Source: a virus
Lineage: Duplodnaviria; Caudoviricetes
Length of the DNA stretch: 64,000 nt
Virus record (IMG/VR): IMGVR_UViG_3300038673_000220
Span: 32,001 to 96,000 of that record
Reading direction: 5' to 3' (one strand)
Made by a program: the position numbers and the translations under genes. Shown here piece by piece: positions 1-47,541 of the stretch (its first letter is position 1; every line of letters starts with the position of its first letter). The notes beneath the pieces were generated by a model. It worked only from the letters and a program-made list of their open reading frames with translations, was not told the DNA's origin and searched no databases.

Positions 1-399
1 GACAAGTATAGTCTTGATAACGTTCTTGATAAAGAGATTCAAATGGGGAAACTCCCACTTATCAGTGGATCTCACGTTATCATGCAACGTCATCATTTTA
101 AAGAATACATCGTTTACAACATATTCGATGTCATTGGATTGAAGCTTCTTGAAGACAGGATCAATGATTTTGTATCTATGCATGTGCTTATAGGTCCAAC
201 TCCAGTAAGCAAGTTTGCAACTCAGACCACTCGATCGACAAATGATATGTATTACGACCTTATCAACAAAGGTATGATCCTCTCATCTAAATCAGGTGAT
301 GATCCTTTTATCAAATTCGATAAGTACTTACCTCGAGTAGGTGGTGCAGTTCTATCTGCGAGTCGAGTACGAGGAGTAGGGATTCCCTTAACCTTATGA
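1..399 (+). CDS. Family-B DNA polymerase, exonuclease-bearing subunit (phiKZ gp82-like), 5' fragment; partial, begins upstream of window
   Basis: Frame is open from base 1 (DKYSLDNVLDKEIQMGK...). Contains PolB-type YSLDNV, ExoIII-like YNIFD and the GGAVL motif that precedes polymerase motif A. Stops before motif A. Confidence 0.85.
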   Translation, partial: DKYSLDNVLDKEIQMGKLPLISGSHVIMQRHHFKEYIVYNIFDVIGLKLLEDRINDFVSMHVLIGPTPVSKFATQTTRSTNDMYYDLINKGMILSSKSGDDPFIKFDKYLPRVGGAVLSASRVRGVGIPLTL

Positions 400-938
400 A
401 CGAAGATTTTTTTCCTATTTCAAAAGATACCGATGTCAAATGCTATCGTTGTAAAAAAGAAAATACTCAATCTGAAGAGCAGTTTTACCTTACAGAGTGG
501 GAACTTTCTACAGGAGCATCAACTGACGGTATTTATTATTGTCATTCTTGTATAATTAATAGTGGAGAACATACAATGATCACATTGCTTGAACCTAAAA
601 ATCCAAAGTCAGATAAAAAAGATAAAAACGTACCAGTAACTGTATTCACCTTAACTTTCGCTACAATCGATCTGAATTATTCGAACGTATCGATATCGAA
701 GAAGGTACCTAATAGCAGGCTTGAATTGAACGAATCTGTATTAAATGATCATTTTGATGATATCATCAGGGATTATAATGATCCAAGTATTTCTACCATT
801 AAGGGAGTATTTAATGGAAAATACGTTAACGTCGAAAAGAAATACATATCAGGATTCTTCGTTGATGTGCTTCATAAAGTTGAAGGTGAAGCTTGTAATG
901 GTTTTGATAATGATGGTCTACCTCCTTGGAATCCTTAA
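396..938 (+). CDS. Hypothetical protein with putative Zn finger, inserted within the polymerase locus
   Basis: ATGA overlap with the polymerase fragment stop; CYRC...CHSC pairs; no family recognised. Confidence 0.7.
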   Translation: MNEDFFPISKDTDVKCYRCKKENTQSEEQFYLTEWELSTGASTDGIYYCHSCIINSGEHTMITLLEPKNPKSDKKDKNVPVTVFTLTFATIDLNYSNVSISKKVPNSRLELNESVLNDHFDDIIRDYNDPSISTIKGVFNGKYVNVEKKYISGFFVDVLHKVEGEACNGFDNDGLPPWNP

Positions 939-959
939 TCCGATTAAGAGGAAACAATA

Positions 960-2207
960 TTGGAATTGTATTTTATCATTACAACTATCATAGATAGATT
1001 CAGAGAATATGCTTCGATAGAAAATTGTATTAGTGAACGATTTATGTATTTAGCTTATCTCTTAGCTAATATCGATAACGATCCACCATCATTCAAACAT
1101 CTCGTCGTTGAAGCGTTATCTCGTCAGGTTCATGGTGATGATTATGAGTATCCGTATGATGAAACTATCTATACTGATCTCATTTTCGTTGAAACTAAAA
1201 TCCCTATCATCTGTAAAACGCATGGTTTATTTTACCTAACATTGAGAGAGCATCTCATACCTCCCATCATAGATGCAGACGAAGCTTTTAAGCTCGATAT
1301 TCGAGATAATTACCCTCACGGATGCTTGACTTGTATCAATGAAATCAAAAACTCGAATGCAAGACGTCGATTAACTACTTCGATGTTCCTCATGCAATTA
1401 GAACAATATCCAGACTCATTAAAGGTTGATTATAGCCTTGTAAGATATGGTATTCCAACTGATGGGTCCTCTAGTGTTGATTCTGATGGTAAAAGGATAG
1501 ATCCTTCAAGTATTCCGATAGCTCTTATCTGTAGAGAGTGTAGCACTCCTGATAATAAAGTCATCTATTATCAGAGACCTTATATCCATATAAAAGGATT
1601 CAAAAAGAATCAAGGAACTGGGTGTAAAGAGTGTCATAAGAAGTTGAGAATTGAAGTTGGTAAAAGAATATGGGAAGATGAAGCTTTTCGTAAGTCTAAA
1701 ACCGAAGCTACTAGAATCCAAATGAATGATCCAATTATGAGAGAAAAATTGCGATCATGGATGACAGAGCGGAATAAGGATCCTGAGTTTAGGAAACTTA
1801 TGAGTTCTGAGGAGGTTCGTAAGAATAGGAGTATATCTAACTCTAATTTTGATAGATCAACTCCATCTGATGTTTATCTTCTTACTGGATATTCATCTGA
1901 ATTTGGATATTTGATCAAGGTTGGATGCAGCTCTAATATCCATAGTAGATTAGCCAATCTCAAGGTTGGTAATGATATCAATTTTGAGTTGATTTGGTCA
2001 AAACATTTCGAAAACGGTATTGAAGCTTTTAAATTGGAGGATTTCATCTTAAATAATGAAACAATTCTGAATCATAAATGGAATGGTGATATGGGGAGTA
2101 TTGTTCGTAAAGGAAGTACAGAAATCCTAACTTTTTCATCAGAAGAAGAACGATCTAAGATCCTCAATTTCATCATCCAAATTTCAGATACTTCCAAATT
2201 CAACTAA
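960..2207 (+). CDS. Putative free-standing homing endonuclease (Zn-ribbon repeats, basic helical region, C-terminal GIY-YIG-superfamily T5orf172/MUG113-like domain)
   Basis: Two IIC..HG/IC..C...GC..C units typical of phage endonucleases; NUMOD3-like basic helix; C-terminal DVYLL...IKVGCS...RL..L...LE...GSTE pattern. Confidence 0.75.
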   Translation: MELYFIITTIIDRFREYASIENCISERFMYLAYLLANIDNDPPSFKHLVVEALSRQVHGDDYEYPYDETIYTDLIFVETKIPIICKTHGLFYLTLREHLIPPIIDADEAFKLDIRDNYPHGCLTCINEIKNSNARRRLTTSMFLMQLEQYPDSLKVDYSLVRYGIPTDGSSSVDSDGKRIDPSSIPIALICRECSTPDNKVIYYQRPYIHIKGFKKNQGTGCKECHKKLRIEVGKRIWEDEAFRKSKTEATRIQMNDPIMREKLRSWMTERNKDPEFRKLMSSEEVRKNRSISNSNFDRSTPSDVYLLTGYSSEFGYLIKVGCSSNIHSRLANLKVGNDINFELIWSKHFENGIEAFKLEDFILNNETILNHKWNGDMGSIVRKGSTEILTFSSEEERSKILNFIIQISDTSKFN

Positions 2208-2235
2208 CCTATTATATAACAAGATTCATTTCAGC

Positions 2236-2285
2236 ATTTTTAGGAAACTTGAAAAATACACCTCTTTTGACAGTTTCCTAAAAAT
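2236..2285. other. 14-bp perfect inverted repeat upstream of the second polymerase fragment
   Basis: ATTTTTAGGAAACT (2236-2249) / AGTTTCCTAAAAAT (2272-2285). Confidence 0.8.
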
Positions 2286-2319
2286 ACCATTTTAAACCAT
2301 TCCACATGGAGGTTTAATT

Positions 2320-2613
2320 TTGCAATTAAGCTTCGAAACGATGTTCTCGATACTAGTAGCAGACCTTGATTACTCAAGTCTTTATCCAAGTATTATGAGA
2401 GCGATAAATCAGAGTCGGATGACTCTAACATTTGTACCTATCTTGATTGATGGAATGACTCGAGATGAACTTGATAGGTACTTTAGTAATCTTGTAAATG
2501 TTAGAGAAAACGCTGAAACTCTTTGTTCTGTTTATCACGGATTTCCAGATTACCAAGAAATGTACCAATTAGTTAGGGACTATCAGTATAGAGACCAACC
2601 CTCAATTAATTGA
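2320..2613 (+). CDS. Family-B DNA polymerase, motif-A-containing C-terminal fragment of the same subunit
   Basis: ADLDYSSLYPSIMRAIN matches PolB motif A (DxxSLYPS). Own SD GGAGG (2308-2312) precedes a TTG start. Confidence 0.85.
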   Translation: MQLSFETMFSILVADLDYSSLYPSIMRAINQSRMTLTFVPILIDGMTRDELDRYFSNLVNVRENAETLCSVYHGFPDYQEMYQLVRDYQYRDQPSIN

Positions 2614-2629
2614 AGGATAATAAATTATC

Positions 2630-3292
2630 ATGAAATTCATTATGTTTTGTGGAGATGATCGAGTCGGTAAATCGACAATGTCAAGATCATTACAATCATT
2701 GATCCATAGAGGTTTTCGTGTTAAAACATCCATCGTATCTTTTGCAGATGGTGTAAGAGATGAATTAGTTAATCTCTATGGTATTCCAAATGAGATTATA
2801 TATAACAAAACCATCGATAAGAAGAAGTTGAATCTTTGCCTCGGTGATTATACATATGAAGGAATCATACCACAGTTGTGGATGAAATATGGCTTAATTG
2901 GTAAGCTTTCTGACTATTCTGATATAGAGATATCTTTACGGGATCTTTTCGTAACTCATGGAACGAAGATCAGACGTCAAGAAGATGATCTTTATTGGAA
3001 TAAGATCGTTAAAGAAAAAGTAGCATCATTCGATGATATTGAAATATGTATCATTGATGATCCAAGATCACCATCGGATTTTGAATTCGACACGTTGATT
3101 TTTCATCTAAACAACAATCAACCAGCTCATTATAATCTTGAACAACAGAGATTCCATGATTGGTTAAAAAATAACGAACATCGCATAGATTTGAGTGTAG
3201 ATCTACCTGTACATTTACTTGAATTCGATGCAGATAAAATAAATAAACAAATCATCTTACCGTATATTCGTGATAAGATGATTATTAAATAA
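2630..3292 (+). CDS. Deoxynucleoside monophosphate kinase-like P-loop kinase
   Basis: GDDRVGKST P-loop, SFADGVR, R....GT..RR and IIDDPR motifs of dNMP kinases. Confidence 0.75.
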   Translation: MKFIMFCGDDRVGKSTMSRSLQSLIHRGFRVKTSIVSFADGVRDELVNLYGIPNEIIYNKTIDKKKLNLCLGDYTYEGIIPQLWMKYGLIGKLSDYSDIEISLRDLFVTHGTKIRRQEDDLYWNKIVKEKVASFDDIEICIIDDPRSPSDFEFDTLIFHLNNNQPAHYNLEQQRFHDWLKNNEHRIDLSVDLPVHLLEFDADKINKQIILPYIRDKMIIK

Positions 3293-3300
3293 GGTGGTTT

Positions 3301-3858
3301 GTGATGCAAAATCAGATATCTTGGCTCTCTTTTGATCTTGGGAGTAATCTCGGTTGGAACAAAAGCGTTTGTACGTTCCGACCTGAGTTAAAAATAAACG
3401 TTGTTGATCATGGTACTATCGATTTGAATCATTTGGCTTCCGAATGGTCTAAGCGTAATTACAGTGAAGTACTCACTCCACGACGTATCAGGATCAATAT
3501 CTTCATGGAGCAAATCAAGAAACTCGTTGATAACTCAAATGCTGACGCTTTTGTTACGGAAGATGTTTTCTGTAATCCTCATCGAGTCGATGCGTTCAGA
3601 GCATTAGTTATCTACATGGATCGATTAGAAAGCTACATCAATAATGAAAAGAACAAACGTTTATACACTATCCCTGCAACTCAGATCAAAAAGCATATCA
3701 GTAATTATGGACATGCTGATAAGTCGTTAGTCATCAAATCTGTTTTGGACAATAACCAAATAACTATGAAAAGGCCTCAAGATGCAACGACTCATGAGTT
3801 TGACAGTGTTGCTGTTGTTTGGGGTTTCATCAGAGAATACCTGATGGTTCAAGTTTGA
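3301..3858 (+). CDS. ruvC: RuvC-like Holliday junction resolvase
   Basis: SFDLG, VTEDVF, IKK...G.ADK and HEFDSVAV give the RuvC catalytic D/E/D layout. Start at GTG 3301 or ATG 3304. Confidence 0.8.
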   Translation: MMQNQISWLSFDLGSNLGWNKSVCTFRPELKINVVDHGTIDLNHLASEWSKRNYSEVLTPRRIRINIFMEQIKKLVDNSNADAFVTEDVFCNPHRVDAFRALVIYMDRLESYINNEKNKRLYTIPATQIKKHISNYGHADKSLVIKSVLDNNQITMKRPQDATTHEFDSVAVVWGFIREYLMVQV

Positions 3859-3859
3859 G

Positions 3860-3870
3860 ATATATATCAT
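3860..3870 (+). promoter_or_regulatory. Phage promoter-like motif ATATATATCAT
   Basis: One of 10 exact ATATATATYAT copies found upstream of + strand non-structural units. Confidence 0.65.
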
Positions 3871-3905
3871 CCTGTAATATCAAATCTACTCATGAGGAGA
3901 AAATA

Positions 3906-5300
3906 ATGTTTCAAGTATCAACTCAGGAAGACCGGACTCCTTCCAGATTAACGCGATATGCTGCTTCTAAATGTTACAATCGTAACAGTGAAGAGTGTTT
4001 GAAGAATTGTGATAAAATAGATATTCCAAATGCTTTAGGTAAAACTGGACATCATACAACGCTTCAACATTCGAGTAACTATATCTCATTCGATATTGAA
4101 AATATACCAGTGAGTCTAGCTACATTCGGTCTCCATCTTACGCATCCATTTTACAATTCGAGTCAACGAAGTGGTCGTTATTGTTTGGATATGTTTGATG
4201 GGGACAACCGTATTCAGCTTGTTGAATACATTCAGCAGTTTAAGAAAAAGTATATCGGTGATACACCTTACGATTTAAAGATCCTTAACTGGTTCTTACG
4301 AGGATTTGATTTCTTTCATGATAATATCGATAAGGTCCAAGCTTTAGCTAAGGACGCTCTCTATAAAGAGCGTCCTCATTATAAACTCGATATCGAACGT
4401 CAATCTTTAAGGATAGCTCAAGACCAACTACGTGTGTTTATCTCAACGATCGTTCCAACCGGAATGGTTTACACGATCAATCATATCGCTCTATTTGCAT
4501 TATATGCTTCAGCTTGGAATGATCCATTAAAAGATCTTACACAGCAGATGATACATCAGATCGAAGATCTTGATATCATACGAACATTTGATTCATTGAA
4601 TCTAAAACAAACTAATGATTATCATCCTCATTTCGAATGTTATGGTGATGAGAATAAGGTCTTTGGTATTTTGAATAAACCAGAAGTTAATGTTCATCTT
4701 ACTAAGATCATTAATGATGATAACTTTGATAAATTTGAATCGCTCTTTAAATCGCACGCTGTTCTTGATACGCTCTATTTTGATCCAAACTGTTATCCAG
4801 AGGATATCGATGATCTTTATTGTACTGAGTTTAAGGCGACTGTCAAAGTACCAGTTGTGACTTTTGGTCAGGATCAACGTCATCGTATGATCTCAAGAAC
4901 GTTAGCGAAGGTTACTGGTGATTTTTACATATCTCCATTACTTGAGAAAGTTCCAGGTGTGATCGATTTTGCAGCAAGATTCGCTAATGAATACAATGAG
5001 TTAGTGAATAATGTTGGACCACGTAATATGATCCATTTTATTCCATATGGTTCAGTTGTTGAATACGCTAAACGGTATGATTATAGAGCGTATGCTCATT
5101 GTATTCATAAACGTATGTGCTTCAATGCTGAAGCAACTATTTGGAAGATGGAGAATGAAACGATCAGACAGCTTTTTGCACTGATGAATCGTGATCGAAA
5201 AGAATCTGTTATAGGACCACCATGTTTAAATGGGAAGTGTCCTGAAGGAAAAAGAAGTTGTGGTAAAGAAAGAAGTTGTTTAACACGTAATCTCATTTAA
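3906..5300 (+). CDS. thyX: Two-domain flavin-dependent thymidylate synthase (ThyX-like)
   Basis: GHHTTLQH, SQRSGRY, QDQRHR, KRMC..AE..I and C-terminal GPPC..G.CPEG motifs. Start moved from 3819 to ATG 3906 after SD GAGGAG. Confidence 0.75.
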   Translation: MFQVSTQEDRTPSRLTRYAASKCYNRNSEECLKNCDKIDIPNALGKTGHHTTLQHSSNYISFDIENIPVSLATFGLHLTHPFYNSSQRSGRYCLDMFDGDNRIQLVEYIQQFKKKYIGDTPYDLKILNWFLRGFDFFHDNIDKVQALAKDALYKERPHYKLDIERQSLRIAQDQLRVFISTIVPTGMVYTINHIALFALYASAWNDPLKDLTQQMIHQIEDLDIIRTFDSLNLKQTNDYHPHFECYGDENKVFGILNKPEVNVHLTKIINDDNFDKFESLFKSHAVLDTLYFDPNCYPEDIDDLYCTEFKATVKVPVVTFGQDQRHRMISRTLAKVTGDFYISPLLEKVPGVIDFAARFANEYNELVNNVGPRNMIHFIPYGSVVEYAKRYDYRAYAHCIHKRMCFNAEATIWKMENETIRQLFALMNRDRKESVIGPPCLNGKCPEGKRSCGKERSCLTRNLI

Positions 5301-29500: not shown

Positions 29501-31547
29501 AGCAGTTCTTGACGCTACAAATGAATCGTTTACTTCTTCTATCTTAGCTGAAATCAATATTAACACTGCAAAGGTTGGTATCACTGTTCAGCAGGCTGCT
29601 GATATTGAAGCAAATAATTCTCATCGTTTAACTACGAGTGGTAATCCTCATGCTGTAACCAAAGCTGAAGTAGGTTTGGGTAATGTACCTAACTTAGATT
29701 TCAGTTCTGCTGTTGCTGCTAATACAGCTCACGCTAATACCGTTGCAGGTAATCCGCATCAGGTTACTAAAGCTGAAGTTGGTTTAGGTAATGTACCAAA
29801 TACTGACTTTACAGCTGATGTTGCTCTGAATAACGCTCATAGAACAACTACTACTGGTAATCCTCATCAAGTTACTAAAGCTGAAGTTGGGTTGGGTCTG
29901 GTACCGAATCATGATTTCACTGCTGAGGTTGCTGCCAATACTGCAAAGGTTGGTATCACCACTGAACAAGCTGCCGATATCGTTTCTAACAACGAGCATC
30001 GTGCAATCACCAGCGGTAATCCTCACGCTGTAACAAAAGAAGAAGTTGGTTTAGGTTTAGTACCAAACCACGACTTCACTGATGAAGTTAATGCTAATAC
30101 TGTATTGGCTCATAGTCATGCAAATAAACCTATTCTTGATGCTACAACCTCAGCCTTCACTACTGAACAAGCTGATGAAATCGTAGCATGTCATTCACAT
30201 CGTATTGATACAAGCACTAATCCTCACGGTATCACCCCGATCATGATCGGCGCTGAAACTCCAGAAGGTGCTCAAACTAAAGCTGACACTGCTGAGCATA
30301 ATGCTAATCTGTATACTGATAGCTTTGTTCTTCAATCTCCGAATTCTTTGTTATTTGAAGCTGCATTGAGAAACTCCTTGGCACTTGATAAGGGTGTTGG
30401 TATGATCAACTTCTCAAGAGCCTCTGTTGCAAATCATCTTGATCGTTACGGTATCGTTCGTGCTTCTGAAGCAAACGTTCCTCGTTTTAATAAAGATGGT
30501 TTGTTGATTGAAGGTCGGAGTACTAACTACTTTGTTGGATCTAAAGATGCTAACGTTTTTGATAAAACAAATTGTCGTGTTGAACTCAATAAACAATACG
30601 ATGCATCTTTTGAAGCTACTGTTGATATCATTTCGATCGATGTTCCTGCAACTGATTGGAAACTTTCAAAAGTTATCACTGACATGTATCTTGAAGAAGG
30701 TAAATACGTTACATTCAGTGTTCGTTTAAAATCTATCACTGATACCCAAGTTGAACTTGCTATTCAAGATTCTGCAGGTATCAACGTTGGGGATTTCGGT
30801 GGAACTAAAGTTATCACTCTGAATGAGTATCTGACTCGTTATGATTTCACTATATTCGTTGAAAACGCAACAACTGGTCATCCCGTTGTCGAGGTTCGTG
30901 GTTTAACGAAAACTGAAGGTGAAAGCTTCGGTATCGTCGATATGCAAGTTGAGCCTTTACCGTTCGTATCGAGTGTTATCGAAACTGTTGATGCGCCAGT
31001 TACTCGTGAACCTGATCGTGTTTATATTCCTTATGTTGAGAACTATCCTGGAAGCTTAGTTGATAAAACCATCAGCTTTGATGTAAATGTTATCGGTACT
31101 ACTGAAGATGTTCATCGTTGTTTCTGTTCTGGCGATCTTCAGATGTATATTGGTAACGGTACTCCTGGAAATCATATGACTCGTGTTGGTATGTCTTCTG
31201 GTGAAGAGACTGAATGGGTTGAGAAGATCGGTAAGTTCCGATTCGGTATCACCTATGATGCTACTTTACAGGAATTGAAGATGTTCCATGATGGTGAGAA
31301 AGTTGCAACGAAAACTAATGTAACTAAGGCTGATCCGCCTTTGGTTGATTCAACTTCTTATGATCAATTCCTTGCTGAAGTTTATCCAACTCTTGATCCT
31401 TCTTCTTATGGGTTAGCTATCTTACAGATCCCGCTTGATGTAATGCAAGCTACCATCCGTTTCGATACTGGTAATCCTTTTATGACTATCTCTAATATCA
31501 GGATCACTGACAAAGTGTTGACTGAGAAACAAATGCTTACTTTCTAA
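23508..31547 (+). CDS. Giant modular virion fibre protein (2679 aa)
   Basis: About 28 NPHxVTKAEVGL (phage tail repeat-like) modules, six knob units and a C-terminal GLLIEG.STN / QVE..PF.SS.I.T...PVTR domain seen in phage fibres. Confidence 0.85.
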   Translation: MQPNIPIQYSTLREYIEAISGAQVTTLTQTVDANYATMMGLVNDLQTSIADIESLNANISANPDVVLNTSHRLTIAGNPHHVTKAEVGLSEVPNYDFTAEVQINNAKVGITQAQADAIIINSAKVGITVQQAADIISNNDHRAIVSGNPHQVTKAEVGLGNVPNIDCTNASNITSGILPTSVLPPLAITDTYSVANEAEQLALTVQKGDIAVRTDLSRSYINQTGGNEAMTDWQELMTPTDLVLSVNGYTGTIQLVTTDIPEGTNFYYTEARVSNNIDVATNTANRHTHGNKAILDATTASFTTEISNTIDLNSAHRETTVGNPHQVTKADVGLSNVPNHDFTDEVAANTAKVGITPEQAADIVAANVHRTTTSGNPHAVTKAEVGLGNVPNTDFTADVLANNAHRAIITGNPHQVTKAEVGLSNVPNHDFTAEVDANTAKVGITPEQADAIVANTAKVGITPEQAASIVASDAHIATVTGNPHQVTKAEVGLSEVPNVDCTNASNITTGTLPTSVLPALAISETFVVADETAQLALTVQKGDVAVRTDEGKSYINATGDNTAMTDWQELLTPTDTILSVNGQTGNVILTTTNIAEGTNLYYTEARVSANVDVALNTANRHNHTNKSILDGTEESFTTVLKNNILTNNDKVGITTEQADAIVANTAKVGITPQQTADIISNNTHRAIVSGNPHQVTKAEVGLGLVPNHDFTDEVDANTAHKNTITGNPHQVTKAEVGLGNVPNTDFTGDIAASNAHIATITGNPHQVTKAEVGLGLVPNHDFTAEVDANTAKVGITPEQAAAIVANTAHAAIVTGNPHQVTKAEVGLGNVLNIDTTNATNITSGMLPSSVLPPIAITDTYSVASEAEQLALDIQRGDIAVRTDINRSYINKLGVNEAMSDWQELLTPIDSVLSVNGFTGAVVLTTSSISEGTNLYYTEDRVINNVDVATNTANRHNHGNKAILDGTTASFTTEISNTIDLNSAHRSTITGNPHQVTKAEVGLSDVPNHDFTAEVAANTAKVGITPEQAASIVDANTHIATVTGNPHAVTKAEVGLGLVPNHDFTDEVNAATTHIATVTGNPHQVTKAEVGLSEVPNHDFTAEVAANTAKVGITQEQADAIVANTAKVGITVEQAASIVASDAHIATVTGNPHQVTKAEVGLSEVPNVDCTNASNITTGTLPTSVLPALAISETYVVADETEQLALTVQKGDIAVRSDLNRSYINSTGDNTAMTDWQELLTPTDTILTVNGQVGTVVLTTTNIEEGTNLYYTEARVSANADVAANTANRHNHANKAILDGTEESFTTVLRNNILTNNDKVGITTEQADAIVANTAKVGITAQQAADIVSNNTHRAIVTGNPHQVTKTEVGLSEVPNHDFTAEVNANTAHRGILEGNPHQVTKAEVGLSEVPNHDFTAEMLIALTHVETITGNPHQVTKAEVGLGSVPNHDFTAEVAANTAKVGITPEQAAAIVANTTHAAIVAGNPHHVTKAEVGLSEVPNVDCTNASNITTGTLPSSVLPAIAITETFVVSNELEQLSLDVQEGDIAVRSDLNRTFINITGTNNAMTDWQELATPTDTILSVNGQTGTVVLTTTNIDEGTNLYYTEARVSNNVDVAANTANRHNHANKAILDATTASYTTADVDTLAAADAHRLTTTGNPHQVTKAEVGLGNVPNLDFTLDIAASNAHIATVTGNPHQVTKAEVGLGLVPNHDFTAEVDANTAKVGITPEQAAAIVANSAKVGITPEQASDITSNNNHRLTVTGNPHNVTKAEVGLGSVPNHDFTAEVAANTAKVGITTQQAADIISNNEHRAIISGNPHQVTKAEVGLSDVPNHDFTAEVNANTAHTAIVAGNPHQVTKAEVGLGNVPNVDCTNASNITTGTLPSSVLPPLAITDTFVVADEAAQLALVVQKGDVAVRTDEGRSYINSTGDNTAMTDWQELLTPTDTILSVNGQTGTVVLTTTNVAEGTNLYYTEARVSANADVTLNTANRHNHTNKAVLDATNESFTSSILAEININTAKVGITVQQAADIEANNSHRLTTSGNPHAVTKAEVGLGNVPNLDFSSAVAANTAHANTVAGNPHQVTKAEVGLGNVPNTDFTADVALNNAHRTTTTGNPHQVTKAEVGLGLVPNHDFTAEVAANTAKVGITTEQAADIVSNNEHRAITSGNPHAVTKEEVGLGLVPNHDFTDEVNANTVLAHSHANKPILDATTSAFTTEQADEIVACHSHRIDTSTNPHGITPIMIGAETPEGAQTKADTAEHNANLYTDSFVLQSPNSLLFEAALRNSLALDKGVGMINFSRASVANHLDRYGIVRASEANVPRFNKDGLLIEGRSTNYFVGSKDANVFDKTNCRVELNKQYDASFEATVDIISIDVPATDWKLSKVITDMYLEEGKYVTFSVRLKSITDTQVELAIQDSAGINVGDFGGTKVITLNEYLTRYDFTIFVENATTGHPVVEVRGLTKTEGESFGIVDMQVEPLPFVSSVIETVDAPVTREPDRVYIPYVENYPGSLVDKTISFDVNVIGTTEDVHRCFCSGDLQMYIGNGTPGNHMTRVGMSSGEETEWVEKIGKFRFGITYDATLQELKMFHDGEKVATKTNVTKADPPLVDSTSYDQFLAEVYPTLDPSSYGLAILQIPLDVMQATIRFDTGNPFMTISNIRITDKVLTEKQMLTF
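23700..30250 (+). repeat. Hierarchical coding repeat: 108-nt and 51-nt modules inside 1002-nt super-repeats
   Basis: DWQ-encoding GATTGGCA at 24201, 25203, 26205, 27207, 28209 and 29319. Boundaries approximate. Confidence 0.9.
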
Positions 31548-31569
31548 TACGTGATTTAAACTAGCAAAT

Positions 31570-31612
31570 AAAATCCACACAGGCACCTTGATTGGTGCCT
31601 GTGTGGATTTTT
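31570..31612 (+). terminator. Intrinsic terminator, 18-bp stem
   Basis: AAAATCCACACAGGCACC-N6-GGTGCCTGTGTGGATTTT. Confidence 0.9.
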
Positions 31613-31614
31613 AA

Positions 31615-31625
31615 ATATATATTAT
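31615..31625 (+). promoter_or_regulatory. Phage promoter-like motif ATATATATTAT
   Basis: Exact motif directly after a terminator. Confidence 0.65.
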
Positions 31626-31669
31626 TATACAGAATGATGTATATAATAGAACTTTCAAGGAGATATCCA

Positions 31670-32065
31670 ATGAGTATTGGTGAAATAGTAAAAGTAATGA
31701 CCGAGGATATGGTTGCAAATAATTGAGTGTGTATGGAGTTAGAAGATTTTGCATATACTACTTTTCATCATAAACCTAATAATACAGAGATATTAGTATA
31801 TTGTGGTGTAAAATACAAATCAGAATCTGAAATCGATAACTTATTCGCTGGAATAATACATACTTTGGTTGTTCATATAATCAAAAACGATTATCCTGAA
31901 GGTATTAATGTAAATAATTGGGTCAAATTCGAAAAGGTTCCAAATACTGATAAAGATCATGTTATGTATCGACAATATTTTAACGATCCTACGTTTGATA
32001 ACTTCATTACTTATAAATTAGAAGATGAATCATTTCGAATGTTATCAAATAACGATATTAATTAA
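31670..32065 (+). pseudogene. DUF4262-like gene interrupted by an in-frame TGA at 31724-31726 (nonsense allele, readthrough or sequencing error)
   Basis: SD AAGGAG plus ATG 31670 is in frame with ORF 31727. FAYT...EILV..G resembles ORF 32469. Confidence 0.55.
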
Positions 32066-32072
32066 GTTATAA

Positions 32073-32456
32073 ATGATAAAAGATGAGGTCCTTATCATGG
32101 AAATACTTACAATATCTGGCAACAATGAAGTTGATATAAAAATAACTTCTGGAGAAAACGATATATCAAGCGATGACTCATTTGAAGAAACACTTCGTAC
32201 TATTATCGAAACTCAGAAACCAACTATTAAATTTATCAACATATCTATAGATAAAAACGCTATGATGTGTTTTTGTTTATCGGAGGGTTTCGATACAAAA
32301 AGTGTTCATGATTTTGAGGTATGTTTAATGATGGGAGATAGATTCTATAGAACGATTACCGACCTTAAGAAAAAGATCAAAGAGGATCGTAATATAGTTT
32401 TGAGTGTTACTATCGACATTCCACATGGATTAAATCCAATTAGAAAATTAAATTGA
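32073..32456 (+). CDS. Hypothetical protein
   Basis: ORF in the operon; SD GAGG may favour ATG 32097. Confidence 0.7.
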   Translation: MIKDEVLIMEILTISGNNEVDIKITSGENDISSDDSFEETLRTIIETQKPTIKFINISIDKNAMMCFCLSEGFDTKSVHDFEVCLMMGDRFYRTITDLKKKIKEDRNIVLSVTIDIPHGLNPIRKLN

Positions 32457-45685: not shown

Positions 45686-47072
45686 ATGCAGAAATGTTTT
45701 GTATTACCGAGTATCATTAACTTAGATGATCTCTTTAGTCGGACACCAAATACAACGGTGTTTAATGAGATCATGCTTGAATGTCAATCAAGCGAAGTTG
45801 TTGATATACTTTGTGATATTTCCAATGATAAAACTGATTCAGTAGCCTCATGTGAATGCGGTTGCCTTAAAGGAAATTATTACACTGGAACGAAATGTCG
45901 GGTATGTAATACTGTTTGCGAATCGAATCTCTTTGGTGAGATACGGAATGATTCGTGGTTAGCTATACCAAACTCTATCAAAGGAGTTTTGAATCCACAA
46001 GTTTTCAGAATCTTGGAAAGCTGGATGGGAAATACTACAGGTCATCAACCTATCATACGACAAATCCTCGATATGCAATTACCAGTAGAACCTATACCGA
46101 ATACGCCATTTTATTCTGGTATGGGATTTAATTGGTTTTATGATAATTTCAACGCTGTTATAACGTACTTTTTGACAAGCCATCCAACAGATACTGGTAG
46201 AAAAGCTGCTCCGAGTATAGAGCTCTTTCTGAAACAAGCTGGAGAAGCTATCTGGTGTCATTATTTACCAATATTAAGTAAGATCATCCAACCTATTACT
46301 CGTGTGAATAAAGATGTTCGTTATGCTGATACGGACATCAAGAATCTCATGAAGTCGATATTCACTTTAAGGAGCATCCTTTTAGCTGAAAAGACCATGA
46401 AGTTTTCTTATGATCACATCGATCGAAACTTCTTCAATGTGTATATTGAGTTCATCAATTACACGAAAAATATCTTGTATTCGAAGCTGCCAAGAAAACA
46501 GAGCATACTGAGGAAACATGTCTTTGGATCACGATCGCATTGTTCAGGACGAACTGTTGCGATCCCAATCGTTGAACCTCATGAGTCAGATAATATCCAT
46601 CTTCCTTGGCGATTAGGATTGATGATGTATCGTTATCACGTATTGGCAGTTTTGGTCAAGAAGTTTAGAATACCACCACTTAAAGCGTTTAATCGTGTTG
46701 TCAATGCTATCAACGTGTACGATTATGAGATCGATCGTATTATGCAGGAGTTGATCGCTGATTGTCCGTATAAAGGATTCCCTCTACTTGTGAATCGAAA
46801 TCCGTCATTGAAAATAGCGAGTATCCAATTATTATTCGCAACGAAGATCAAACCTGCATTAACTGAGAATCCGGTCAATTTACCAAATATTGAAGATATT
46901 AATGTCTCAGTGTTTGATCAGGATGATGAAGGATTCAGTAAGAGCTCATCGATCTTGGACATCAATGATGAAGATCAAATCGATCCAAAACTGAAGTATC
47001 TATTACGAAGCTATGTTGAAGATGATACAATAGCTGTTTCACCACTGATCGTTAAAGGTCCCAATCTTGACT
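45686..47072 (+). CDS. Non-virion RNA polymerase beta'-like subunit (phiKZ gp55-like), exon 1
   Basis: CECG...C..C zinc finger, RKHVFGSR, NRNPSL; ends GPNLD at the catalytic loop. Confidence 0.9.
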
Positions 47073-47541
47073 TAACACATAAGGTCCGCTATGAAGTAAT
47101 TCATAGATGAAAATCTCTCTAATTGCTGGAACCTACTAAAGCTGTCTCACTACAACGTGACTCGAAAGGGTGAGCGTGAATGTTTGAAAACGAGACGGAT
47201 ATATGGGGAACCGTGGATTCTAAGAATCCCTTTAGCAGCCAAGATCCTAAAGTTATTGGGTATTGATTAATTGAATGAAGATACTCAGGTGGATTAGTTA
47301 ACCAATAAATAAGGATAAGGTCCAACGACTATGTGATTAATGGGTAATTCAATAACAATGTATCTATGGGTTATTGAGTCTACATACGCGCCATTAAGTA
47401 TACAGTACTTACCAAGTGGGTAGGGAAATGGGAGACTGCCTCAGGAGATGAGGTAGAAGAGATAGTCTGGACATCTAGGGAAAACCTAGAGCTGCAGGTA
47501 ATGCTGCGGGGATCAACTAACGACTGATCCTGAACATAACG
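47073..47541 (+). ncRNA. Group I intron (IA-like), 469 nt, no internal sense ORF
   Basis: P1 GACU/GGUC with U-G at the 5' splice site; P AATTGCTGGAA, Q AGCAGCCAAG, R CAACGACTA, S AAGAGATAGTCT; terminal G 47541. Splicing restores NLDFDGDE. Confidence 0.92.

What the first reader, a model, noticed from the sequence alone, without database searches (positions are those of the whole stretch)
1..2613. DNA polymerase subunit fractured by a two-gene endonuclease cassette with no visible intron
Seen: the exonuclease part ends ...GGAVLSASRVRGVGIPLTL* at 399 and motif A (DYSSLYPS) resumes 1.9 kb later in a 97-aa ORF with its own GGAGG SD and TTG start. The gap is almost fully coding (Zn-finger ORF plus endonuclease), leaving about 110 nt, and I found no group I P/Q/R/S or group II ends. 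Known: phiKZ-type PolB is already split in two genes, and gene fission by a free-standing homing endonuclease has precedent (Aeh1 nrdA/mobE). Inference: this polymerase assembles from at least three polypeptides, with a catalytic Asp supplied by a tiny subunit.
Basis: partly seen in the sequence, partly recalled or inferred. Interest (0 to 1): 0.8.

Follow-up and report, generated by a model that had tools for sequence, protein, structure and literature searches.

The report
Three-gene phage DNA polymerase, endonuclease hotspot
In this uncultured phiKZ-like giant phage the DNA polymerase is encoded by three separate genes. The extra break is old and shared by a whole group of related phages, and the endonuclease cassette is a later selfish insertion into the gap between two genes that were already separate.

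Summary
The N-terminal polymerase subunit (phiKZ gp82 type) is encoded as a 449-aa ORF ending at window 399 and a 97-aa ORF at 2320-2613 that carries motif A. Between them lie a 180-aa zinc-ribbon ORF and a 415-aa DUF723 + T5orf172 (GIY-YIG-like) endonuclease ORF. There is no intron signal, although the same search detects a group I intron elsewhere in this genome.

The causal reading is not supported. Forty-three of the 99 homologue clusters placed on the tree end at the same residue, and 42 of them lie in one well-supported clade. Six relatives have at most 57 nt between the two pieces, and all ten relatives whose DNA was read keep an 85-111-aa motif-A mini-gene. The split therefore predates this cassette.

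The junction is a hotspot with variable cargo:
- nothing;
- a 61-65-aa zinc-ribbon ORF;
- an HNH endonuclease, in one case lying over a remnant of a T5orf172 gene;
- HNH plus an extended zinc ORF;
- here, an extended zinc ORF plus a T5orf172 endonuclease.

The C-terminal subunit (753 aa, PF20286) is intact about 108 kb downstream of the 97-aa gene, so the enzyme should assemble from three polypeptides. The closest precedent is the split gene 43 of Aeromonas phages 25 and 44RR. I rate it a new variant of a known kind. Another first-stage read of this stretch (e1-5824899) gave the same cassette-split reading.

The parts
1..399 (+). 3' end of polymerase piece A1. The full ORF is 449 aa (G000 31050-32399) and covers the N-terminal and 3'-5' exonuclease domains. 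It ends ...GVGIPLTL, then TGA.
   Evidence: phrog_3011 positions 11-462, E 4e-94. Exo motifs DIETS, NMNFD and YNIFD can be read. The sequence aligns to the T4 polymerase N388 exonuclease fragment 1noy. Forty-three homologue clusters end at the same position.
396..938 (+). 180-aa ORF, start overlapping the A1 stop (ATGA). Its N-terminal ~57 aa are a four-cysteine zinc-ribbon module with the motif FYLTEWE.STGAS.DG..YC..C. The C-terminal ~120 aa extension has no known fold. Function unknown.
   Evidence: No Pfam or PHROG hit. There is a small family of 61-68-aa proteins plus a few extended forms. It lies at the same junction in L019/L020, L022 and L030, and on short contigs where no polymerase gene is visible. 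Model pLDDT is 68.6, about 90 over part of the zinc module, with no convincing fold match.
960..2207 (+). 415-aa free-standing endonuclease gene (TTG start, AGAGGA 7 nt upstream). It has two DUF723-type C..HG...H...GC..C zinc modules and a C-terminal T5orf172 / GIY-YIG-like nuclease domain (about 300-415).
   Evidence: phrog_681 'endonuclease' E 4e-7. T5orf172 E 0.011 and MUG113 E 0.02, both below the Pfam cut-offs. The tblastn homologue in phage Bas82 (E 1e-7) scores T5orf172 1e-14 and DUF723 2e-13. Conserved modules are visible in the alignment. The top three fold matches of residues 302-415 are GIY-YIG nucleases: 7wme Z 7.3 (rmsd 2.4, 87 aligned) and Slx1 6seh/7cq2 Z 6.7/6.3. No paralogue in the record.
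2236..2285 (+). Unique 14-bp-stem hairpin in the 112-nt spacer between the endonuclease gene and A2. Role unknown.
   Evidence: z = -4.5 for 2205-2335, 0 of 200 shuffles fold as well. It occurs once in the window, and the full stem-loop was not seen again in the 149-kb record.
2308..2613 (+). GGAGG ribosome-binding site (2308-2312) and polymerase piece A2 (TTG 2320 to TGA 2613, 97 aa). A2 holds motif A with the catalytic Asp (D17 of DYSSLYPS) and a C-terminal segment equivalent to phiKZ DNAP-N 589-638.
   Evidence: PF00136 E 6e-5 and phrog_3011 positions 483-562. Ten relatives keep an 85-111-aa orthologue with invariant D15, D17, S20, Y22 and P23. Aligned to phiKZ gp82.

Best explanation
This phage belongs to a clade of phiKZ-like phages in which the N-terminal polymerase subunit (DNAP-N, phiKZ gp82 type) has long been split into two separately translated genes.

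- A1 (about 450 aa) carries the N-terminal and proofreading exonuclease domains.
- A2 (85-111 aa, here 97 aa) carries the motif-A strand with one of the two catalytic aspartates, plus the tail that in phiKZ folds into the 'palm insertion' domain together with DNAP-C.
- With the separate 753-aa DNAP-C, the working enzyme is inferred to assemble non-covalently from three polypeptides, without RNA or protein splicing.

The short A1/A2 intergenic junction is flanked by strongly conserved coding DNA. It has been invaded repeatedly by free-standing mobile genes.

In this genome the cargo is an extended zinc-ribbon ORF plus a DUF723/T5orf172 (GIY-YIG-superfamily) endonuclease. That endonuclease most likely spreads by 'intronless homing': it cuts the cargo-free junction of a co-infecting relative and is copied in during repair.

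Shown here: the gene anatomy, the conservation and clade-wide distribution of the split, the variable cargo, and the absence of an intron signal. Inferred: assembly, activity, endonuclease cleavage and homing.
For: Anatomy and colinearity:
- The break maps about 12 residues before phiKZ D562.

The split is clade-wide:
- All 40 closest clusters (41-71% identity) are 447-471 aa and end in a shared motif...GG.V...G.G.., at the same alignment position.
- Forty-three of 99 clusters are split. Forty-two of them lie in one clade with SH-like support 99. Our sequence is nested deep beside P0002/P0003.

No splicing is needed:
- Relatives have gaps of -1, 7, 11, 12, 34 and 57 nt between A1 and A2. The frame relationship is not conserved and each A2 has its own ATG.
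- A2 is conserved in 10 relatives with invariant motif-A residues.

Third gene:
- DNAP-C is intact at G000 142162-144423 (-). Evidence: tblastn E 1e-46, PF20286 E 2e-104 and phrog_2927 E 7e-111; it contains SDTDS.

The junction is a hotspot:
- a 61-65-aa zinc ORF in L019/L022;
- HNH genes (phrog_374, E 1e-63 and 5e-71) in L023/L030;
- a 74-aa remnant of a T5orf172 gene in L023 (E 1.6e-8).

Intron tests:
- There is no Rfam intron hit in the gap at E <= 10.
- The same kind of search finds Intron_gpI at window 47064-47491 (48.4 bits, E 9e-11).
- The resident intron cores show no similarity to the gap.

Literature:
- phiKZ DNAP-N + DNAP-C form a stable, active 1:1 complex. Motif A is in N, motif C is in C, and the palm insertion domain is built from N 589-638 and parts of C (PMC13648687).
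- Gene 43 is split in Aeromonas phages 25 and 44RR, and the two pieces co-purify and are active (PMC2988022).

Assembly check:
- The 449-aa product and the endonuclease product (called from the ATG at 1044, 387 aa) are each on record from two contigs.
Against: - No transcript, protein or activity data exist for any member of the clade.
- The record is only about 54% complete, so a second intact copy in the missing part is not formally excluded.
- The endonuclease assignment rests on sub-threshold Pfam scores, one PHROG hit, transitive homology and a middling fold match on a low-confidence model (mean pLDDT 52, about 75-80 in the C-terminal domain).
- A strong hairpin lies between the endonuclease gene and A2. 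If it terminates transcription, A2 would need its own promoter, and none was found.
- A2 starts with TTG here, whereas relatives use ATG.
Confidence: 0.85

Rival explanations
1. An endonuclease insertion did create the break, as in Aeh1 nrdA/mobE, but in the ancestor of the clade. Most descendants later lost the endonuclease and kept the two-gene state. On this view today's cassette is a descendant or a re-invader.
For: - The junction carries endonucleases of two families in three lineages, plus a decayed T5orf172 remnant in L023 that is related to this window's gene. This shows long association and turnover.
- Such fissions are documented (PMC2988022, PMC3045599).
Against: - The three early-branching split lineages sampled (L032, L033, L034) and three others have only a short spacer or a 1-nt overlap, with no remnant seen.
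- This endonuclease has very few relatives, and within this clade an intact copy at the junction was found only in this phage.
- The review of phage 25 and 44RR makes the same point: invasion of an already split gene is equally possible.
- The origin cannot be resolved with present data.
Confidence: 0.3
2. A cryptic self-splicing intron (group I or II) spans about 395-2320, with the two ORFs in its loops. The mRNA is spliced to give a normal 546-aa DNAP-N.
For: - This genome does carry group I introns in other genes.
- Both polymerase pieces happen to be in the same frame, and frame 1 is open from 2296.
Against: - There is no Intron_gpI or group II hit at E <= 10, while the positive control scores E 9e-11.
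- The gap shows no similarity to the resident intron cores.
- Only 21 + 112 nt are non-coding.
- A1 stops and A2 starts at the same residues as in relatives whose gap is at most 57 nt, too short for an intron.
- A2 has its own GGAGG and start codon.
Confidence: 0.02
3. This is a 'fractured gene' of the split-intein type (Dassa et al. 2009). The two pieces would carry intein halves, be joined by protein trans-splicing, and have the endonuclease gene between them.
For: The gene order (piece, free-standing endonuclease, piece) resembles that arrangement (PMC2677866).
Against: - A1 and A2 are colinear with uninterrupted homologues to within about 2 residues. That leaves no room for an N-intein of about 100 aa or a C-intein of about 35 aa.
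- A2 begins 14 residues before motif A.
- Relatives show the same picture.
Confidence: 0.01
4. The locus is a decaying pseudogene, and a functional uninterrupted DNAP-N lies in the unsequenced half of the genome or is supplied by another polymerase.
For: The record is about 54% complete.
Against: - Both pieces are intact ORFs with all exonuclease motifs and motif A.
- The same two-gene state is conserved across 43 clusters down to 36-40% identity, with invariant catalytic residues.
- No second copy exists in the 149 kb.
- The flanking gene order is shared with relatives.
Confidence: 0.03

Closest known systems
Split gene 43 (PolB) of Aeromonas phages 25 and 44RR (Petrov, Ratnayaka & Karam 2010, as reviewed in PMC2988022)
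   Same: - A family B replicative polymerase is encoded as two cistrons.
- One relative has only a short untranslated spacer, and another has a free-standing GIY-YIG-type (seg) endonuclease gene in the gap.
- The reviewers note that the endonuclease may have invaded an already split gene.
- The pieces co-purify and are active.
   Different: - The phage lineage is different (T4-like) and the break point is not shown to be the same.
- That enzyme has two pieces, not three.
- Here the split is fixed in a large, deep clade. The small piece is only about 90 aa, and at least three kinds of cargo use the junction.
PhiKZ two-subunit polymerase DNAP-N (gp82) + DNAP-C (gp50), cryo-EM structure (Basu et al. 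2026 preprint, PMC13648687)
   Same: - It is the same divergent PolB family: phrog_3011 and PF20286/phrog_2927.
- Motif A is in the N part and motif C in the C part.
- The C-terminal tail of the N part contributes to the palm insertion domain.
   Different: - PhiKZ DNAP-N is one 638-aa chain.
- Here the equivalent is cut about 12 residues before the motif-A aspartate into 449 + 97 aa.
- The Pseudomonas-specific little-finger insertion is absent.
Aeh1 nrdA split by mobE (PMC3045599) and T4 gene 39/60 split by mobA
   Same: An essential phage enzyme gene lies in two cistrons with a free-standing endonuclease gene between them. Function is restored by non-covalent assembly.
   Different: - In Aeh1 the insertion is held to have made the split and left new tails that are needed for assembly.
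- Here the split is older than the cassette, and no insertion-derived tails are seen at the break.
T5orf172 / DUF723 phage endonucleases (e.g. Escherichia phage Bas82 gene 0047)
   Same: - Same architecture: DUF723/treble-clef zinc modules followed by a T5orf172 domain.
- Free-standing, and placed between conserved phage genes.
   Different: - Only about 25% identity.
- This copy has an extra helical N-terminal region of about 50 aa.
- No biochemical data for either were looked up here.

Membership tests
PhiKZ-type divergent family B DNA polymerase, N subunit (phrog_3011) | Significant full-length profile match covering the N-terminal domain, the exonuclease domain and motif A | tested here: met
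   The two ORFs together cover profile positions 11-462 and 483-562 of 576 (E 4e-94 and 5e-13). PhiKZ gp82 itself scores E 2e-243 with the same profile.
PhiKZ-type divergent family B DNA polymerase, N subunit (phrog_3011) | Exo I/II/III motifs and motif A DxxSLYPS present | tested here: met
   DIETS, WNMNFD and YNIFD in A1. DLDYSSLYPS in A2. These residues are invariant in 10 relatives.
PhiKZ-type divergent family B DNA polymerase, N subunit (phrog_3011) | Encoded as a single polypeptide, as in phiKZ gp82 (638 aa) | tested here: not met
   It is two ORFs separated by 1920 nt here, and by -1 to 57 nt in relatives. This is the variant feature.
PhiKZ-type DNAP-C (Pfam PF20286 divDNApol) | Full-length match above the curated cut-off, with motif C | tested here: met
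   350.8 bits against a cut-off of 25.7, covering profile 4-705 of 705. SDTDS is present.
Free-standing homing endonuclease of the T5orf172 / GIY-YIG superfamily | T5orf172 domain above the Pfam gathering score | tested here: not met
   16.7 bits against a cut-off of 20 (E 0.011). Support is indirect: phrog_681 E 4e-7, the Bas82 homologue with T5orf172 at 55 bits, and the alignment.
Free-standing homing endonuclease of the T5orf172 / GIY-YIG superfamily | GIY-YIG-like fold of the nuclease domain | tested here: inconclusive
   The top three structural matches for residues 302-415 are GIY-YIG nucleases (7wme Z 7.3, rmsd 2.4, 87 aligned; 6seh Z 6.7; 7cq2 Z 6.3). However, Z is below 8 and the model is weak overall.
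Free-standing homing endonuclease of the T5orf172 / GIY-YIG superfamily | Present or absent at one locus among otherwise syntenic relatives | tested here: met
   It is absent from the same junction in 10 relatives, and a decayed relative of it is present in L023.
Free-standing homing endonuclease of the T5orf172 / GIY-YIG superfamily | Site-specific cleavage of the cargo-free allele, and gene conversion | not testable with these tools
   Needs an in vitro cleavage assay and co-infection crosses.
Group I intron | Conserved catalytic core (P3-P9) detectable by a covariance model | tested here: not met
   No RF00028 hit in 1-3500 at E <= 10. The same model finds an intron at 47064-47491.
Split-intein 'fractured gene' | Intein halves appended to the two extein pieces | tested here: not met
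   The pieces are colinear with uninterrupted homologues, with no extra domain at the break.

The most novel reading that the evidence does not exclude
The three-piece enzyme may be a functional design rather than a tolerated accident. On this reading the proofreading/N-terminal module (A1) is a detachable subunit. The ~90-aa motif-A piece is locked to DNAP-C through the palm insertion domain. The small zinc-ribbon protein is translationally coupled to both pieces by ATGA overlaps in some relatives, and it would be a polymerase-associated factor rather than selfish cargo.
Probability: 0.08. Interest if true: 0.75.

Novelty: new variant of a known kind. Interest (0 to 1): 0.55.

Why it matters
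- It shows that a replicative family B polymerase can work (by inference) with its catalytic motif-A aspartate on a free polypeptide of about 90 residues. This state has been stable across a deep clade of giant phages.
- The new phiKZ DNAP structure makes the arrangement directly testable as a natural dissection of PolB: an exonuclease module, a palm mini-subunit, and the palm/fingers/thumb.
- It is a clean example of how a junction between two essential, conserved genes becomes a landing pad where different homing endonuclease families replace one another.
- For annotation, about 450-aa 'truncated' polymerase genes in such phages should not be called pseudogenes, and the ~90-aa gene after them should be named.

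Tried and rejected
- **Intron:** the Rfam E-value scan of 1-3500 gave only noise (snoRNA-like hits and a 'rox1' hit that is simply the hairpin). BLAST of the genome's two resident intron cores against the gap gave nothing.
- **Second polymerase copy:** phrog_3011, PF00136 and motif regexes over the 149-kb record found none. A weak tblastn hit of A2 at G000 134008-134184 (E 0.019) lies antisense to structural genes and is noise.
- **Close relatives among isolates and IMG/VR:** the best matches are only 26-30% identical, and A2 alone finds nothing. The informative relatives came from the metagenome protein search.
- **Foreign composition of the cassette:** GC is 31-39% throughout, with no contrast.
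- **Promoter or terminator for A2:** consensus scans were at chance level. The AACCTATTATATAAC stretch after the endonuclease stop codon is not a recurrent motif. The hairpin is unique.
- **Fold of the 180-aa ORF:** only weak zinc-domain and small-barrel matches (Z <= 5.5).
- **Maximum-likelihood tree with mixture models:** it did not finish, so FastTree was used.
- **PhiKZ polymerase in the PDB copy:** not found by sequence.
Full report
**What is in the sequence**

The window is bases 32001-96000 of a 149-kb virus record that CheckV rates about 54% complete. Frame 1 is open from base 1 to the TGA at 397-399. With the upstream DNA it forms a 449-aa ORF, here called A1 (G000 31050-32399).

- An ATG at 396 overlaps that stop (ATGA) and opens a 180-aa ORF that runs to 938.
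- After 21 nt, which include an AGAGGA ribosome-binding site, a TTG at 960 opens a 415-aa ORF that runs to 2207.
- 112 non-coding nt follow.
- GGAGG at 2308-2312 and a TTG at 2320 then open a 97-aa ORF, here called A2, which runs to 2613 and contains DLDYSSLYPS.

**Identity of the polymerase pieces**

The PHROG family phrog_3011 (576 positions) matches A1 over positions 11-462 (E 4e-94) and A2 over 483-562 (E 5e-13). Nothing else in the record matches it. Uninterrupted homologues in isolated phiKZ-like phages are 576-638 aa.

Alignment shows that A1 plus A2 are colinear with these homologues. A1 ends ...GVGIPLTL, A2 begins MQLSFET..., and the two ends correspond to adjacent segments of the uninterrupted proteins with nothing lost or added. 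Against phiKZ gp82 the break falls about 12 residues before the motif-A aspartate D562.

A1 holds the Exo I-III motifs and aligns with the isolated T4 polymerase exonuclease fragment 1noy. In A2 the catalytic Asp is residue 17 and 80 residues follow it, against 76 in phiKZ. The A2 tail therefore corresponds to phiKZ DNAP-N 589-638. In the cryo-EM structure that segment folds with two segments of DNAP-C into the 'palm insertion' domain (PMC13648687).

**The third gene**

A tblastn search with the second polymerase subunit of phage BONAISHI found an intact 753-aa ORF at G000 142162-144423 on the minus strand (E 1e-46). It matches Pfam PF20286 'divergent family B DNA polymerase' end to end (E 2e-104) and phrog_2927 (E 7e-111), and it contains SDTDS. 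The polymerase is thus encoded by three genes of 449, 97 and 753 aa.

**The split is old, not made by this cassette**

A search of 5.8 billion proteins found that all 40 closest clusters (41-71% identity) are 447-471 aa long. They end in a shared motif...GG.V...G.G.., at the same alignment position. Full-length forms of 541-630 aa appear only at 42% identity or less.

On a FastTree of 99 clusters, 42 of the 43 split forms lie in one clade (support 99). The window's protein is nested deep in it beside P0002 and P0003. The label needs only two changes on the tree.

The gene neighbourhoods of eleven members show what lies between A1 and A2:

| Cargo at the junction | Where |
|---|---|
| Nothing (1-nt overlap, or a gap of 7, 11, 12, 34 or 57 nt) | Six genomes, including the early-branching L032, L033 and L034 |
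| A 61-65-aa zinc-ribbon ORF joined to both neighbours by ATGA-type overlaps | L019/L020 and L022 |
| A 316-aa HNH endonuclease | L023 |
| A 320-aa HNH endonuclease plus a 167-aa extended zinc-ribbon ORF | L030 |
| The 180-aa extended zinc-ribbon ORF plus the 415-aa endonuclease | This window |

All ten relatives whose DNA was read keep an A2 gene of 85-111 aa with invariant D15, D17, S20, Y22 and P23. Gaps of at most 57 nt cannot hold an intron. The reading-frame relation between A1 and A2 varies, which rules out read-through. Each A2 has its own start codon. The two-gene state is therefore the normal, selected state of this clade, and the cassette here sits in an intergenic junction that already existed.

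**Endonuclease turnover at the junction**

In L023 the last part of the HNH gene and the DNA after it still encode, in another frame, 74 residues that match the C-terminus of P0122 (E 1.6e-8). P0122 is the closest relative (37% identity) of this window's endonuclease. A T5orf172-type gene therefore once occupied that junction too and was overrun by an HNH gene.

**The cargo genes**

*The 415-aa ORF.* It hits phrog_681 'endonuclease' (E 4e-7), and it hits T5orf172 and MUG113 just below the Pfam thresholds.

- Its tblastn homologue in Escherichia phage Bas82 is a free-standing gene lying opposite-strand among tail genes. That homologue scores T5orf172 at 1e-14 and DUF723 at 2e-13.
- The alignment with P0122 and P0123 shows two C..HG...H...GC..C zinc modules and the conserved K-[IV]-G...N...R / E / G-[ST]-E positions of the nuclease domain.
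- The AlphaFold model is poor overall (pLDDT 52) but reaches about 75-80 over residues 300-415. The three best structural matches there are GIY-YIG nucleases: At-HIGLE 7wme (Z 7.3, rmsd 2.4 Å, 87 aligned) and Slx1 (Z 6.7 and 6.3). I regard this as suggestive, not proof.
- There is no paralogue in the record.

*The 180-aa ORF.* It belongs to a small family of mostly 61-68-aa proteins with the motif FYLTEWE.STGAS.DG..YC..C. At least two members lie on short contigs where no polymerase gene is visible, so the family is not shown to be tied to the polymerase junction. The ~110-aa C-terminal extension is shared (32% identity) only with the L030 copy, which also lies next to an endonuclease. With only two cases, this may be chance. 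No fold or function could be assigned.

**No intron and no intein**

Rfam at E <= 10 found no intron model in 1-3500. As a positive control, the same kind of scan finds a group I intron in this genome at window 47064-47491 (48.4 bits, E 9e-11). That intron and its twin have no similarity to the polymerase gap. Colinearity of the two pieces leaves no room for intein halves.

**How it most likely works (inferred)**

A1, A2 and DNAP-C are translated separately and assemble non-covalently. A2 would be anchored mainly to DNAP-C through the palm insertion domain, and A1 would dock as the N-terminal/exonuclease module.

The endonuclease is probably a free-standing homing endonuclease. It would cut the cargo-free junction, or the conserved motif-A coding DNA next to it, in co-infecting relatives, and would then be copied in by repair, as described for seg and mob genes of T4-like phages (PMC2988022). 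The junction is a safe and attractive landing site because insertion there breaks no reading frame and the flanks are highly conserved.

Three points remain open:
- what the unique 14-bp hairpin at 2236-2285 does (z = -4.5);
- whether A2 is still co-transcribed with A1;
- whether some ancient endonuclease caused the original break.

**Comparison with what is known**

The closest precedent is gene 43 of Aeromonas phages 25 and 44RR. It is a PolB in two cistrons, with either a short spacer or a seg endonuclease between them, and the review explicitly says the endonuclease may have invaded an already split gene.

The two-subunit phiKZ enzyme has now been solved. That paper does not mention a further split, and my literature searches found no description of a three-gene version.

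I therefore rate this a new variant of a known kind, of moderate interest.

Noticed in passing
window 47064-47491: Rfam Intron_gpI match (48.4 bits, just under the gathering score of 50; E 9e-11). A second copy with 80-84% identical core blocks lies at about G000 125927-126281. I used it only as a positive control for intron detection.
   Followed up: partly
L023:7199-7372: A 74-residue remnant of a T5orf172-type endonuclease C-terminus (47% identical to P0122). It overlaps the 3' end of an HNH endonuclease gene in another frame, at the same polymerase junction. One homing endonuclease has overrun another.
   Followed up: partly
proteins P0088, P0092, P0112 and P0089, P0100, P0117: Other DNAP-N homologues stop at different places: at or a few residues after the 'GWI' stretch, or inside motif A ('..HVAD(LD)'). 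P0092 (461 aa) is nearly identical to full-length P0091 (572 aa) on the tree. These may be recent interruptions by introns, inteins or endonucleases at other sites of the same gene, or simply contig ends.
   Followed up: no
protein P0044 (alignment): On the tree, the uninterrupted homologue closest to the split clade carries an in-frame ~24-residue CxC...CxxC insertion just before the GGAVL motif. That is a zinc module inside the polymerase, close to the break point used in the split clade.
   Followed up: no
proteins P0042 and P0043: Two members inside the split clade end about 30 residues earlier (422-423 aa...DPL[KR]FI.). They may have a shifted break point or an additional interruption.
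   Followed up: no
window 936-962: The 180-aa ORF and the 415-aa ORF are in the same reading frame, separated only by two TAA codons (936-938 and 945-947) and five sense codons. This may be chance (1 in 3) or a former fusion.
   Followed up: no
window 2309-2334: In the minimum-energy fold, but not in the centroid, the GGAGG site and the TTG start of the 97-aa gene pair into a small hairpin. This could damp its translation.
   Followed up: no
window 2630-5300: Downstream genes are a dNMP-kinase-like gene (phrog_139), a RuvC-like resolvase (phrog_159) and a long ThyX-like protein (PF02511 over the first half only, 493 aa). The same gene order is seen in relatives L019-L024.
   Followed up: partly
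L023:1292-2446: A relative carries a TnpB-type gene (OrfB_IS605 / Cas12f1-like) a few genes upstream of its polymerase locus.
   Followed up: no
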